A DNA stretch of 64,000 nt from Eledone cirrhosa. Lineage: Eukaryota. A program made the position numbers and the translations under genes. Shown in pieces: positions 1-60,690 of this stretch; position 1 is the first letter of the stretch, and each line of letters opens with the position of its first letter. Where the stretch lies: the NCBI GenBank assembly GCA_964016885.1, contig OZ024741.1, positions 212,164,001-212,228,000 of the forward strand, in the 5' to 3' direction. The notes under the pieces are model-generated. The model had not been told where the DNA came from and made no database searches. It was given only the letters and a program-made list of their open reading frames with translations.

Positions 1-190
1 TACTAGCCCCTATTGCATGTGCAACCATTTTTCTTACCTGATCAGTGTTTTGGGGGGTCCGTATAGCTTTGGTCCACCCAATCCACCTTCCTATGGGAGT
101 CTTTTTAGCCATTGAGGTTATGGTGGGGGGTCTACCTCTTATAGGTCTACTAGGGCAGAAACATCTAAGGTCATGGCTGTCTATGCAGAA
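1..190 (-). pseudogene. Penelope-like element (Neptune-type) reverse transcriptase fragment, runs off the window edge
   Basis: Stop-free minus-strand frame FCPSRPIRGRPPTITSMAKKTPIGRWIGWTKAIRTPQNTDQVRKMVAHAIGAS. Resembles the CPxR..GRPPTIT..W..P..VRxM..A segment of Neptune-type PLE RTs (recognised from memory). Abuts a GIY-YIG fragment. Confidence 0.6.
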
Positions 191-492
191 ACACGACAAC
201 AACATACATAGGTGAGACAGCTCGTAGCATAGGTGAAAGGATAGACCAACACTGGGGGGAACTAAAAGGACGAAAAAACGGGTCAGTACTATACGAACAT
301 GCTAGACAACATCATGACGGTAACATAGACAACATAGAAATTAGAATAATATCTAAACATAGGAATGACCCAGCAGATAGGCAAATCAGAGAGGCCAGTG
401 AAATAGAAATTAGAAGACCAAAGCTAAACAGAAAGAATGAGTGGAACAACAACAACACCCAAACAAACAACACTGACCTAAGAGAAGTATAA
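181..492 (+). pseudogene. PLE GIY-YIG endonuclease C-terminal fragment
   Basis: Open frame LCRNTTTTYIGETARSIGERIDQHWGELKGRKNGSVLYEHARQHHDGNIDNIEIRIISKHRNDPADRQIREASEIEIRRPKLNRKNEWNNN...* with YIGET-R, R..xH, RQIxEA and LNxKxEW motifs. Absent from the ORF track (no start codon). Confidence 0.9.
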
Positions 493-769
493 ATAAATAA
501 GTAAATTAAATTAAATAAAATAAGATAAATAAATACATACACAAGCACATAAACACACACTAGTCACCCAGCAGACACAACACTATACACACTAGTCACA
601 CATCACACATAACACTATACACACACGCAAACGCATGCGCAAAGAAGACAAAATAAAATAAGATAAACAAACAAGCAAATAAATAAATAAATAAATATAT
701 AGACAGACTGAACAAAAAAAAAAAATGGCGTAGACATACAACACAACAGGAGGAACAATGAATATAACA

Positions 770-810
770 CCACTGACGATGTTGCAGATGTGCAACGAAA
801 GATTTATGTA
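770..810 (+). ncRNA. Minimal hammerhead ribozyme in PLE pLTR
   Basis: CTGACGA (773-779), stem II GTTGCA-GATG-TGCAAC, GAAA (797-800); stems I and III are very short. Confidence 0.65.
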
Positions 811-1017
811 AACTATATATATATGTGTTTGTCTATATTGTATCTGTATTATTTTTAACCGCCGGTCAGTCAATGGCAACATTGAGGACCGAGTAAGTTA
901 GATCGCAGATATATATATATAAAAGACAGCGAGAAGCGAAAACCAACCAAACAGTGAGTGTGTTCTGTTATTAATTCTGGCAATATTACGCAAATATGAC
1001 CCTCCCCAAATATAACA

Positions 1018-1100
<83 letters not shown>

Positions 1101-3833: not shown

Positions 3834-4170
3834 ATGTAGATAAATCTACCAAAAGTTTACGGTAGTGTCCAATCCGTATGAAGAACTCAATGTAATCCGG
3901 ATATCATGGAAAGAAGAGATGCATTCAAAAATCACTTTCGGTGAAAGATAAACGGAATACAGAGTCAAGATAAAATATAAAAAAAATAATGAATAAAACA
4001 AAGAAACAGTTCCTTATATTAAACAAAAAAAGTTCATTATTTAACGATCGTTTCTAGGACATATATGTGTTAGAATTGGCATGCATATTCAAAAGATCTA
4101 TGTACAAAATTATACAAACTATCAAGGAGAATATACATACCATCACATATATATGCTGTCTTCAGAAATA

Positions 4171-4705: not shown

Positions 4706-4712
4706 TATATAT

Positions 4713-5223
4713 ATTTCGTTTCTGAATTTGTTTAGCAAGATTCTATAGCTGAACATATGTGTTGAAACCGATATTGTTATGCTTTGGGAAGGTCATGTTG
4801 CCAATAAGAAACACACGCACCAGTTGCTTTCACTCAAATTTATTATAAAATATATTTATATATTTAAGAATTTATAAATTTCCGGTTGGTTGGTTCCACA
4901 ACCGGACGGTTGTTCATATATTGTCAAGGTTCTTTCGTCACACATTCTGTGACCTCTTCAGTAACTGGAGATTCTTTCCTTTGTTTTGTTTTGTTTTGTT
5001 TTGCACAAAAACAAAGAAAAGAATCCCTAGTCACTGAAGAGGTCACATAATATGTGATGAAAGAACTTTGACAATATATGACCAACCGTCCGGTTGCGGA
5101 ACCAATCAACCAACCGGAAATTTATAAATTCTTAAATTTATAAATTTAATTTATAATAAATTGGAGTGTAACAACTGGTGCGTGTGTTTCTTATTGGCAA
5201 CATGACCCTCCAAAAGCATAACA

Positions 5224-5228
<5 letters not shown>
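4713..5228. mobile_element. Head-to-head inverted pLTR pair (family A-related), ~225 bp arms, one HHR-like motif per arm
   Basis: 4771-4990 is the reverse complement of about 5005-5228. Plus-arm HHR GTCA-CTGAAGA-..TCACATA/TATGTGA..-GAAA-GAAC-TT-TGAC at 5030-5072. Confidence 0.85.
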
Positions 5229-5671: not shown

Positions 5672-6385
5672 ATATCACAGGTATATATTAAGTTAGGAAC
5701 TCAAAATAGTCTCTTTCAACAAAATAGCTCTAAGAAAGAGATATTTCAGAGCCGTATATTATAATAGAATATAAAAGAAAAACGAACACAGATATATACA
5801 TATATGTGTTCAAATCGTTACGATTTGAATACATATATGTATATATCTGTGTTCGTTTTTCTTTTATATTGTATTATAATATACGGCTCTGAAATATCTC
5901 TTTCTTAGAGCTATTTTGGTGTAAAAGACTATTTTGAGTTCCTAACTCAATATATACCTGTGATATATTCGGCTCCGTTAATTTGTTGAGCTATTTAAAA
6001 TGTCGAATAAACCTCCTGTCTGCTATTTTTAGTGTAAGTTTGTGAGATGCGCTATGATGTCATGTGCGCTAAAATGTTTATATATAACACACTATTCAGT
6101 TTCATAATATACTTAGAATTGTCTAGGATACTAATTCATCACACACTGATGAGCTTGAATTGGTAATTCTATTCACAATTAACTTTGCGAAACAACAACA
6201 AGTTGTCTGGGTGATGGGTAGTTACCACAATTCCGGATTGTATTTATTTTCTTAATTCTTTCTTAAATTGAAACAAGCAAACCCTATCGTCTATAGTTAG
6301 TATTCTTTTCACCTTAGCGAATACAGTCCCTTACGATTTGAACACTTATATGTATATATCTGTGTTCGTTTTTCTTTTATATTCT

Positions 6386-8831: not shown

Positions 8832-9020
8832 TAACGAAGGAAATATGGTAAGAAACCAGCTGGACCATAACCCACCAGAATACTGAATACTCAGGGTAGT
8901 AGAGTGGGTAATAGGAAAAAGTATGACACCGACGGCAGAGCTCAAGCCGTTCGACGGCTATTTCTGGACTGAAATAGCCGTCGAAACGGCTTGAGCTCTG
9001 CCGTCGAGGTCATACTTTTT

Positions 9021-9023
<3 letters not shown>
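8832..9023. mobile_element. Family D foldback element
   Basis: Arms of about 55 bp around 8968; GAAACGGCTTGAGCTCTGCCGTC. Confidence 0.8.
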
Positions 9024-9077
<54 letters not shown>

Positions 9078-9082
<5 letters not shown>

Positions 9083-9560
9083 ATCAAAAGATGGTTAAAA
9101 GAGTTCCATGTATTTTATTATGCGCATTTCAAAAACAAATATCATCATGCAATAATATTTGTGTTTTCATCAGATAAAATAGGAAGACATGATATGAAGG
9201 TTAAAAAACACTTGTGAATAGTGCAGTTTTAAATCAACATAGAGATATGTTGATTTAAAACTGCACTATTCACAAGTGTTTTTTAACCTTCATATCATGT
9301 CTTCCTATTTTATCTGATGAAAACACAAATATTATTGCATGATGATATTTGTTTTTGAAATGCGCATAATAAAATACATGGAACTCTTTTAACCATCTTT
9401 TGATCTTATATATTATGTATACTCCAGTCCTACAAACTGTAGAGTGCTACTTATCCGATATCTGCATTGCTTTATTGTACTACAATAAAACTCACCTCCT
9501 ACACATATATATGTCTGTATTGAATTTATTAAATAATGTAATTTAACCTTGTTATTGTAT
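9078..9560 (+). mobile_element. Family H element: perfect ~165 bp inverted repeat plus extended right arm
   Basis: 9078-9240 is the exact reverse complement of 9247-9409, with a 6-nt loop; preceded by (TA)n. Confidence 0.9.
9306..9376 (+). ncRNA. Hammerhead ribozyme (mirror copy on minus strand 9111-9181)
   Basis: TATTTTAT-CTGATGA-long stem II (AAAC..CAAATATTA/TGATATTTG.TTTT)-GAAA-TGCGCA-TA-ATAAAATA. Confidence 0.85.
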
Positions 9561-9933: not shown

Positions 9934-10021
9934 ATATATATATATATTGTTATACTTGGGGAGGGTCATATTTGTGTAATATTGCCAGAATATCAAAAAC
10001 CTCGCAAAACTAATTCATCGC

Positions 10022-10090
<69 letters not shown>

Positions 10091-37335: not shown

Positions 37336-38169
37336 CATTAATAGATAATTGTTTATACTTTTGGCACAAGGCCAGCAATTATCCCAGTGTATTACTGGTA
37401 CTTTATTTTATCGACCCCGTAAGGATGAAAGGCAAAGTTAACATCGACGGGATTTGAACTCAGATAATAAAGGGCCGTAACTCTTTGCTGCAAAGCATGG
37501 CGTCAGACCCTCTAACGATACTGCCAATAAAGGCAAATTACCTTCTGAATTACTTGAATTTTAAAACACACAACAGAGTGGTAACGTTATTTTCATCATA
37601 TATGAGGCTGAAATCATATATGTAAACACCAACCAAGCAGTCAGCAGTAAAATATATGTGGATATGGTGCAAGACAGGTTTAAGCAATTGTTTTACTCAC
37701 ATGTTTCGCTATTTGGACACACAGAGGTGAAGATAACCACAGCGCTTTCAAAAACATATCTAACAATTGAAAGACAGAAGTATTCCCCATCTAACGAATT
37801 TAGAATTCTATAAAAGAACAGACCATACCATAATCGGTATTAGAAATGTAGACGTCTCTAGGGATTAAAGACCAACAATTACGTTTTCAATGTCTGTTTA
37901 CACCTTTGCAAAGTTCTTGCTCTCCTCAGACGAATATCATCTCTCCGACATAGATTCAAAACAGATGAGGAGCAAAGACCACTTGAATATTGATTCCTTT
38001 TGCCTCGACTAAAAGTCTTCTGAATACCATCTTCTAGCTTTCACCTCCGTAGAAATGATATACTTATAAGTAACCTAACTTACTCATGATCGGTCAGACA
38101 GAGACGTTATAGAAAAAAGATATGAAAAAACATATCTTCATATGTTTATATATATATATATATATATAT

Positions 38170-38480
38170 ATGGGGAGGGTCATATTTGTGTAATAATATT
38201 GCCAGAATTAATAACAGAACACACTCACTGTTTGGTTGGTTTTCGCTTATGTGTCTTTTATATCGGTTAATTTAATTTATTCGGTCCTCAATGTTACCAT
38301 TGACTGACCAACGGTCAAAAATATAGATACAATATAGACACAAACACATATATATAGTTTATCAAAGTTCTTTCGTTGCACATCTGCAACCACGTCAGTG
38401 GTGCTATTATGTTTCCTCCCATTGCATTGTATGCCTACGCCATCTTTATTTAGTCTGTTTATTTATTTATTTGTTTATTT
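38170..38480 (-). mobile_element. Family A pLTR copy with degenerate HHR
   Basis: Reverse complement of about 700-1007; CTGACGT-GGTTGCAGATGTGCAAC-GAAAGAAC. Confidence 0.85.
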
Positions 38481-39246
38481 ATTTATTTATAGTAATAATA
38501 ATAAATTTGAAGACTAATTGTAATTGTTTTCACTGTGCCAAATAATGACGTATTATCTTCGTTTTTTTTTCGTTCTTTGCTGGGAACGTTTCCACGAACG
38601 AAAGTATCGTCGTCCTGTCTTCCTTCGGTTGCAACGTTTTTTGAAATATTTACTTCTGCGTTCACAGATTGACTCTTTTAGTTTCAGAAGATCCCGTTAA
38701 GGGTGAAAGCAGCGATTCTTTGCTTAAACTTTAATCTGTTATTTTAATAAATATATATATATATGTGTGTGTGTATATATATATATATGTATACACACAC
38801 ACAAACACACGTACACACACATGCACACACACACACACACACATATATACAGTATATATATCCCAGAGACTGGTGACTAGGTTCCGAATTCGATCACCCC
38901 TCCATGCACTCTGCATCATTGTGCAGAATCTGGGTAGATGTCTACGAGTGGACCTTGAAACCTAAGGTAGTACCTTTTCTTTTCTTTCTTACTTACCTTT
39001 AATAGTGTTTTTGTTTTTGTTTTTGTGAACAGCTTTGTAAAACAGGTGTAGAATCTTTAAAATAGTATAATAAAATATAACATAATATATACGCGTATGT
39101 ATGTGTGAGTGTATATATACATACACACAGATACATACATACACACATATACATACACACACACACACACCCATATATATATATACATACACACACACAC
39201 ACATATATATATATAACCTGAGTTTTTCGAATATTAATAATAATAT

Positions 39247-59847: not shown

Positions 59848-60690
59848 ATATTGTTATACTTGGGGAGGGTCATATTGTTGTAATAATATTGCCAGAAATA
59901 ATAACAGAACACACTCACTGTTTGGTTGGTTTTCGCTTCTGCATCTTTTATGTCATAGTTAATTCATACCATTCATACCAGAGTTAATTCATTTGGCCAT
60001 CCATGTTTATCATTGCCTGACCAACGGTCAAAAATACAGATATCAATAATATAAATATAGTCTAACAAAGTTCTTTCGTTGCACATCTGCAACGTTATCA
60101 GTCGTACTATTATCATGTTTCGCCCTATTGTATTGTATTATACTGTAATGTCTATGCCATTATTATTTTGACTTTGTCTTTCATCCTTACGGGATCGGTA
60201 AAATAAAGTACCAGTAATGCACTGGGTAATTGCTGGCCTTGTGCCTAAAGTAGAAACAATTATTATTTTATCTATTTATTTATTTATTTATTTATTTATT
60301 TTTGTCTCCTCCGTCTCTGCGCATGCGTTTGCGTGTGTGTATAGTGTTTGGGACGTGTGTTCGCGTTTGTGTTATTCTATCTTTGTTTATTAGTGTGTGT
60401 TTTTATGTGCTTGTTTTTATTGTACTTGTGTACATATATATTTATTTATTTATCTATTCATATTTCTCTTAAGTCAGTATTGTTTGTTTGGGTATGGTTG
60501 TTGTTGTTATTCCATTCATTTTTTTCTGTTTAACTTTAGCTTTCTAAGCTCTATTTCGCTCGCTTTCCTGATTTGACCACCTGTTGGGTCATTTCTATGT
60601 TTAGATTTATTTTAATTTCTATGTTGTCTATGTTACCGTCATGTTGTTGTCTGGCGTGTTCATATAGTACTGAACCGTTATTATCGTAAG
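59848..60690 (-). mobile_element. Family A PLE 3' end (EN remnant plus pLTR) with a nested SINE fragment
   Basis: Reverse complement of 278-1020; GSVLYEHARQQHDGNIDNIEI in ORF 60551-60733; SINE core at 60170-60265. Confidence 0.9.

What the first reader, a model, noticed from the sequence alone, without database searches (positions are those of the whole stretch)
1..1020. PLE with divergent RT and GIY-YIG halves, missed by the ORF track, tying the HHR to its retroelement
Seen: a stop-free RT-like frame on the minus strand (1-190) joins directly to a stop-free GIY-YIG frame on the plus strand (181-492). These are followed by a UTR containing an HHR and a (TA)n end. Known: PLE insertions are often 5'-truncated with an inverted 3' segment. 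Inference: a fairly young Neptune-type PLE continues leftward outside the window and is the kind of autonomous driver that could mobilise the short HHR units.
Basis: partly seen in the sequence, partly recalled or inferred. Interest (0 to 1): 0.7.

Follow-up and report, generated by a model that had tools for sequence, protein, structure and literature searches.

The report
Two-armed young Penelope-like retrotransposon insertion
This is one broken, mirror-image copy of a very young jumping gene that sits in TA repeats; the two arms of such copies share private mutations and nearly always end at two different fixed points, so they were likely copied from one RNA at both sides of a DNA cut, and the enzyme carries an extra conserved piece that we did not find described for this kind of element.

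Summary
Observation confirmed. Window 1-1021 is the right part of a 2,949-bp head-to-head insertion in (TA)n. The left arm (mostly outside the window) carries the C-terminal RT, EN and a mirror of 184-1021; junction 183/184. The family is very young (0.22% between copies) and has complete 1,210-aa ORFs elsewhere; this copy lacks RT motif A and cannot be a driver. Three corrections. (1) 'Neptune-type' is doubtful: the Cys linker is short (Nematis-like), window 1-183 encodes a conserved ~70-aa insertion between motifs A and B', and the group sits apart from long-linker elements in a tree (AU p=0.052). (2) The HHR palindrome at 4711-5227 is a truncated copy of a sister PLE family, not a shown passenger. 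(3) The 'UTR' is a pLTR ending inside the ORF start. In 32 of 34 two-armed insertions one arm ends at ORF +21/26 and the other at +69 to +86, and arms share private variants: likely twin priming on one RNA. Inverted PLE copies, tails and minimal HHRs are published; the scan noted the insert clade and two-site ends before, on other DNA of this genome.

The parts
1..183 (-). 5'-most part of the left arm (arm continues left of the window: L011 7073-9183, 2,111 bp, RT motifs B'-C, thumb, Cys linker, GIY-YIG, pLTR, ending at ORF +84 in (TA)n). These bases encode aa ~705-764: most of the insertion between RT motifs A and B' and the helix before B'
184..492 (+). Right arm, 5'-truncated GIY-YIG endonuclease (aa 1109-1210 of the full ORF), stop at 490-492
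493..770 (+). Non-coding spacer of the tandem unit (low-complexity AAAT/AC tracts, A12 run); run length is shared between the two arms of an insertion
771..808 (+). Minimal type-I hammerhead motif: CUGACGA 773-779, bulged U, helix II 781-786/791-796, GAAA 797-800, 1-bp+wobble helix III, predicted cut after A806, helix I only 2 bp; cleavage untested
   Evidence: design compared with PMC4209133
809..995 (+). Rest of the pLTR = leader upstream of the next ORF in tandem copies
996..1021 (+). First 26 nt of the ORF (ATG at 996); the 'short' 3' end of the insertion
1022..1095 (.). (TA)n target on the right side; a (TA)n run also flanks the left arm, so no target duplication can be read
4711..5227 (.). 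Head-to-head truncated copy of sister PLE family B, an HHR in each arm, tail end (+86) left and short end (+26) right
9944..10027 (.). 84-bp two-armed remnant of the same family: short-end arm left, tail-only arm right
38165..38490 (-). Older pLTR copy (81% identity), HHR core mutated
59848..60687 (-). Older EN-pLTR copy in two pieces (73-78%), HHR core mutated

Best explanation
This is a dead, 5'-truncated, head-to-head insertion of a very young Penelope-like retrotransposon family in a (TA)n repeat, whose two arms were likely reverse-transcribed from one RNA by priming from both ends of a cut target. Shown: anatomy, intact family ORFs, (TA)n targets, two fixed 3' end zones in the ORF start, one of each per two-armed insertion, shared private variants between arms. 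Inferred: the GIY-YIG domain nicks both strands of (TA)n; each 3'-OH pairs through 2-4 bases with the RNA, one at ORF +21/26 and the other at +69 to +86; two RTs copy toward the RNA 5' end, stop independently, and the cDNA ends are joined with 0-8 bases of microhomology or a short insert. The hammerhead is read through in every long arm, so its cleavage likely does not define insertion ends. The family belongs to a group of C-terminal-EN PLEs with a short, Nematis-like Cys linker and a conserved ~70-aa insertion at the telomerase IFD position, likely acquired independently of telomerase.
For: Mirror arm and open frame. Family: 942 first-look candidates, 40 of 40 scored 100% identical over EN; 40 of 40 scored identical over the ORF 5' part; 0.22% mean divergence; 2 complete 1,210-aa ORFs of the 6 full-length units checked, 4 frameshifted. 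Ends: 14 of 14 young two-armed events have one short and one tail end (p=6e-5); 18 of 20 in family B and older copies (two rows corrected by hand); together 32 of 34. Arms share private variants (focal: a SNP seen in no other of 36 copies) and A-run length in 11 of 11 pairs within 2 nt against a 7-26 range (permutation p=1e-5). The tail arm is the longer in 8 and the shorter in 6, so neither arm is always a copy of the other's cDNA. 3 of 16 junctions are near-symmetric (p=0.01). In vitro, a Poseidon protein nicks and extends both strands, starts RT at two adjacent sites, and uses uncut RNA (PMC11167929). Insert: A-B' spacing 124-136 aa in 52 of 52 homologues versus 55-62 in nearly all other PLEs where it could be measured and 57 in DreriNep1 (counted from Fig. 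S1); fold best matches TERTs, Z 14-16.
Against: Same donor does not prove the same molecule: two RNAs from one locus, or gene conversion between inverted arms, would also give shared variants. In L015+16 the right-arm units carry a ~130-nt deletion that the left arm lacks; arms of L082 (5 SNPs in 1,928) and L019 (3 in 1,906) differ as much as unrelated copies. L021, a tandem duplicate of the L022 junction, has tail/tail ends and was not counted; L038 and L073 are short/short. 10 of 28 stretches hold single-armed copies. PMC11167929 saw no strand difference in start site and no homology at the start site. No RNA or biochemical data were available. Clade labels in the tree rest on architecture, with one Poseidon-type row, and the AU test does not reject an insert+Neptune grouping (p=0.052).
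Confidence: 0.66

Rival explanations
1. Two RNA molecules from the same donor locus, held by an asymmetric RT dimer, prime the two target ends; the asymmetry of the dimer, not competition on one RNA, fixes one short and one tail end.
For: Explains 32 of 34 discordant ends and shared variants as well; fits the L015+16 deletion in one arm only; a dimer is predicted for PAc (PMC11167929).
Against: Does not by itself predict near-symmetric junctions (3 of 16, p=0.01); needs both RNAs to come from one of many near-identical donors.
Confidence: 0.2
2. Fold-back self-priming: one cDNA is made, its 3' end folds back and copies itself, giving the inverted arm (the model raised in PMC3846280, there on an antisense template).
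For: Near-palindromic junctions in 3 of 16; arms share variants; published proposal.
Against: In 6 of 14 events the short-ended arm reaches further 5' than the tail arm, and a short-primed cDNA lacks the tail, so neither arm could be the template of the other; the focal junction has no microhomology.
Confidence: 0.08
3. One reading: a Neptune PLE that is the autonomous driver of the window's short HHR units.
For: CX4CxxC linker, CCHH EN and (TA)n targeting are shared with Neptune; family B shares the terminal 29 nt at 83% and the same two end sites, so trans-mobilisation is conceivable; PMC8557442 calls Neptune paraphyletic; AU p=0.052.
Against: Linker spacer ~10 aa versus 22-29 in long-linker elements; insert absent from them; family B copies have variable 5' ends, 5 of 25 loci reach family-B RT/EN at ~44-83% aa identity, and copies are 92-96% alike, an older wave; 7 other HHR-like sites show no link; this copy lacks motif A.
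Confidence: 0.06

Closest known systems
Nematis clade of C-terminal EN+ PLEs (as shown in PMC8557442 Figs S1, S2; supplement parts 54-55 read)
   Same: Single ORF, RT then short CX2-5CxxC linker then CCHH GIY-YIG; similar EN tail motifs; falls on the same side of the unrooted tree as short-linker elements (100/98)
   Different: ~70-aa insertion between motifs A and B' (128 versus 55-60 aa); forms its own branch (100/99), not nested among the short-linker rows sampled
Neptune clade
   Same: Cys linker, CCHH EN, (TA)n targets, pLTR with minimal HHR
   Different: Short linker spacer, long insertion, separate from 20 long-linker rows including three from this genome
Poseidon PAc of Anolis (PMC11167929; passages and part 2 of the main text read)
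   Same: Ends inside the ORF start at two adjacent sites (tail); AT-rich targets; uncut RNA as template
   Different: Tail here is 43-60 nt; ends lie at TA-type micro-matches; strict one-short-one-tail pairing per insertion is not stated in the passages read
Adineta vaga Penelope families (PMC3846280; passages read)
   Same: Head-to-head inverted copies, optional tail on one inverted pLTR, pLTR including the first codons, Asn-rich ORF insert
   Different: Poseidon-type; the Asn-rich block here lies N-terminal of the RT
Telomerase RT insertion-in-fingers domain; Naiad/Chlamys IFD
   Same: Same position between motifs A and B', similar length to TERT
   Different: No structural superposition shown: 108-118 of 201 residues align at ~3 A with human, Tetrahymena and Tribolium TERT, as with insert-less LINE-1 RT; more align only at 5-11 A

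Membership tests
EN+ Penelope-like element | Single ORF with telomerase-like RT | tested here: met
   1,210-aa ORF; best folds TERTs, Z 16.4 rmsd 3.5 273 aligned
EN+ Penelope-like element | C-terminal GIY-YIG with CCHH motif | tested here: met
   VVY...C...C...YIG...H...H; I-TevI Z 10.3, rmsd 2.1, 90 aligned
EN+ Penelope-like element | Partial tandems, pLTRs, inverted 5'-truncated copies, tail | tested here: met
EN+ Penelope-like element | Minimal type-I HHR in the pLTR | tested here: met
   core, bulged base, G-C closing pair, near-palindromic helix III; 2-bp helix I as in D. virilis; no Rfam hit
EN+ Penelope-like element | HHR self-cleavage; RT and EN activity | not testable with these tools
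   needs bench work
Neptune | CX2-5CxxC linker | tested here: met
   CX4CxxC
Neptune | Long spacer between CxxC and the next Cys, as in the four Neptune rows of Fig. S2 | tested here: not met
   ~10 aa versus about 25
Neptune | No insertion between motifs A and B' | tested here: not met
   128 versus 57 aa
Neptune | RT phylogeny | tested here: inconclusive
   outside a 100/99 long-linker group; AU p=0.052 for sister grouping; labels by architecture
Nematis | Short Cys linker and CCHH EN | tested here: met
Nematis | No insertion between motifs A and B' | tested here: not met
Nematis | RT phylogeny | tested here: inconclusive
   same side of the unrooted split, not nested; no named reference rows
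Hydra | CxCX5C linker, no CCHH | tested here: not met
Naiad/Chlamys | N-terminal EN | tested here: not met
TERT IFD | Same fold as the telomerase insertion | tested here: inconclusive
   position shared, superposition not shown

The most novel reading that the evidence does not exclude
An unnamed, widespread clade of C-terminal-EN PLEs with its own folded insertion in the RT fingers is currently amplifying in this genome, and its insertions record a general rule for PLE integration: both ends of the cut target prime on a single RNA at two adjacent sites, which explains tails, head-to-head arms and palindromic junctions in one step.
Probability: 0.45. Interest if true: 0.65.

Novelty: new variant of a known kind. 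Interest (0 to 1): 0.42.

Why it matters
How PLEs form tandem/inverted copies and tails is named as an open question in PMC8557442 and only partly answered in vitro (PMC11167929). A family at 0.2% divergence with intact ORFs, many two-armed copies and a strict one-short-one-tail rule makes twin priming directly testable. The conserved insertion breaks the published rule of thumb that canonical C-terminal-EN PLEs lack an insertion in the fingers. The locus itself is an ordinary dead copy.

Tried and rejected
Pfam gave nothing for the window frames or the full ORF; PDB sequence search gave nothing; Rfam missed the HHR and returned only microsatellite-driven miRNA hits. No RNA holder listed, so expression, introns and cleavage were not tested; contigs of 3 of the 5 listed runs showed close relatives but nothing on this junction. 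Free folding of the focal HHR gives helix II but not the active fold; the dimer cofold was uninformative. An intron completing helix I was considered from GT/AG-like sites, but two of the three donor-like sites are not kept in older copies: dropped. HHR-like sites at 2416, 5459, 7355, 32450, 34872, 39261 and 56052 show no real match to this element; those at 9173/9314, 26830, 39923 and 62246 were covered only by the whole-window blastn, also without a match. No non-coding tandem derivative of this family was seen in loci L023-L077; this was not a genome-wide search. The ESM Atlas gave no result, so host range of the clade is open; the only named close hit is an Octopus vulgaris protein at 69%. 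No fold match for the insertion itself. Literature searches found no description of this insert clade or of coupled end choice; Arkhipova 2006, Repbase and Dfam were not seen and may hold it. Dropped from the tree: P0417 (mis-cut), L134 (partial), P0277.

Full report
Observation. The window lies in a 3.0-Gb genome (G000:C2). With the left flank (L011; window position 1 = L011 9001) the minus frame stays open for 507 aa through motifs B' and C (YVDD), the thumb, a Cys linker and a GIY-YIG domain. The plus arm 184-1021 mirrors the left arm's 3' part at 817 of 818 bases. The junction is blunt at 183/184. The whole insertion is 2,949 bp with (TA)n on both sides.

The family. Tandem units are 4.0-4.15 kb. 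The ORF is 1,210 aa with an N-terminal region, an Asn-rich block, RT and EN. Of 6 full-length units checked, 2 are intact and 4 frameshifted. Searches scored 40 of 942 and 40 of 889 candidates; all 80 were 100% identical, and mean divergence between insertions is 0.22%. The focal copy begins at codon ~705, downstream of catalytic D655, so it is dead. The segment downstream of the stop is a pLTR: spacer, HHR, leader, then the first 26 bases of the ORF.

Clade. An AlphaFold model of aa 490-1210 (pLDDT 91) matches telomerase RTs best (Z 14-16) and I-TevI for the EN. Window 1-183 encodes most of an insertion: motif A to B' spans 128 aa, and 124-136 aa in 52 of 52 aligned homologues, with E690, R716, P723, R736 and W740 kept in at least 96% of 97 rows. 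PMC8557442 (passages, section 12, supplement parts 54-55 read) shows about 57 aa for Neptune, Nematis and Poseidon rows and says canonical PLEs lack the insertion, apart from sporadic Coprina cases. The linker is short like Nematis, not long like Neptune. A profile search gave 497 hits at E<=1e-5, 120 listed; I did not check how many of the 497 carry the insert. This genome also holds long-linker, short-linker and Hydra-like families without the insert. A 58-row tree on 362 columns, insert excluded, gives the insert group 100/99, the long-linker group 100/99, and a split of insert plus short-linker versus long-linker plus one Poseidon-type row at 100/98. Forcing insert and long-linker together costs 15.6 log units, AU p=0.052: Neptune is unlikely but not formally excluded, and labels are architectural. 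The insertion is predicted folded but does not superpose on TERT IFDs.

Mechanism. 3' ends cluster at ORF +21/26, +69/71 and +80/85, each at a TA-type match to the target; an ATATA at about +47 was not seen as an end, so homology alone does not choose the site (inference). Among 28 stretches, 14 two-armed events had both ends visible, and 14 of 14 paired a short with a tail end; left out were two with an end beyond the stretch, one split copy, one older copy with its left end outside, and L021, a duplicate junction with tail/tail ends. Ten held single arms (7 short, 3 tail). In family B and older copies the script found 16 of 19 discordant pairs; by hand one tail broken by an indel was reclassified and one mislabelled pair added, giving 18 of 20. 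Arms share private variants and A-run length, are not nested (8 versus 6), and meet with 0-8 bases of overlap or short inserts. The simplest reading is two primers on one RNA. Exceptions are L015+16, L082 and L019. PMC11167929 supports two-strand nicking, two start sites and uncut RNA, but reports no strand bias; PMC3846280 and PMC8557442 describe head-to-head copies and a tail often on one end only, so the anatomy is known and the coupling count is the added part.

Hammerhead. The motif fits the minimal PLE type of PMC4209133 (parts 1-2 of 4 read), with a 2-bp helix I; family B has a 4-bp helix I and a different helix II sequence that still pairs. Every long arm reads through the predicted cut, so cleavage is not what sets the ends (inference).

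Short HHR units. The palindrome at 4711-5227 shares the terminal 29 nt (E=0.002), but its relatives (1,827 candidates, 40 scored, 92-96% identical) have variable 5' ends and 5 of 25 loci reach family-B RT/EN. It is a truncated sister-family copy. A bioRxiv preprint (10.64898/2026.07.22.740005, part 1 of 5 read) already argues that retrozymes derive from PLE pLTRs; I found no direct link for this family.

Earlier notes. My reading was fixed before the look-up. The scan had noted the insert clade (e1-9508900) and two fixed ends 59 bases apart in a non-coding HHR repeat (e1-8665316) on other DNA of this genome; families A and B show the same 58-60-base spacing, a lead for a driver link that I could not test. 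Verdict: real, well explained, a new variant of a known kind.

Noticed in passing
L012 2174, L079 4633, L015 6821, L088 1905, L097 3053 (unit positions 3919-3966): Five arms have their 5' end within 48 bases at the hammerhead, three at its 5' edge; one of these is a full-length copy. Possible transcription start or RT stall at the HHR.
   Followed up: no
L132 5842-6807; L138 2344-3774; L128, L130, L131: The same genome holds Hydra-like, short-linker (Nematis-like) and several long-linker (Neptune-like) PLE families, some with long open frames.
   Followed up: partly
L012 1-2431 (about 16 kb left of the window): A second, slightly older two-armed copy of the family; its right arm is 91% and its left arm 98% identical to the young reference.
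   Followed up: partly
window 34872 and 56052; 7355; 9173/9314; 3324 and 8193: Other CTGANGA-type motifs in short or palindromic (TA)n-flanked repeats unrelated to this element; may be other PLE ends.
   Followed up: no
L016 2429-6061, aa 248-410: A ~160-aa Asn/His-rich block in frame, N-terminal of the RT; similar inserts are described in rotifer PLEs at other positions.
   Followed up: no
P0082: A named Octopus vulgaris protein model begins with ~150 aa of this PLE lineage's RT fused to a leucine-rich-repeat protein; exonised fragment or annotation artefact.
   Followed up: no
P0083: A homologue with linker and GIY-YIG placed N-terminal of an insert-bearing RT; may be a tandem read-through rather than a permuted element.
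   Followed up: no
L017-L018: Three identical tandem units all carry the same +1 frameshift, so arrays can amplify a broken ORF.
   Followed up: partly
window 5700-5960 and 8920-9030: Short near-perfect palindromic repeats next to (TA)n runs, unrelated to this family.
   Followed up: no
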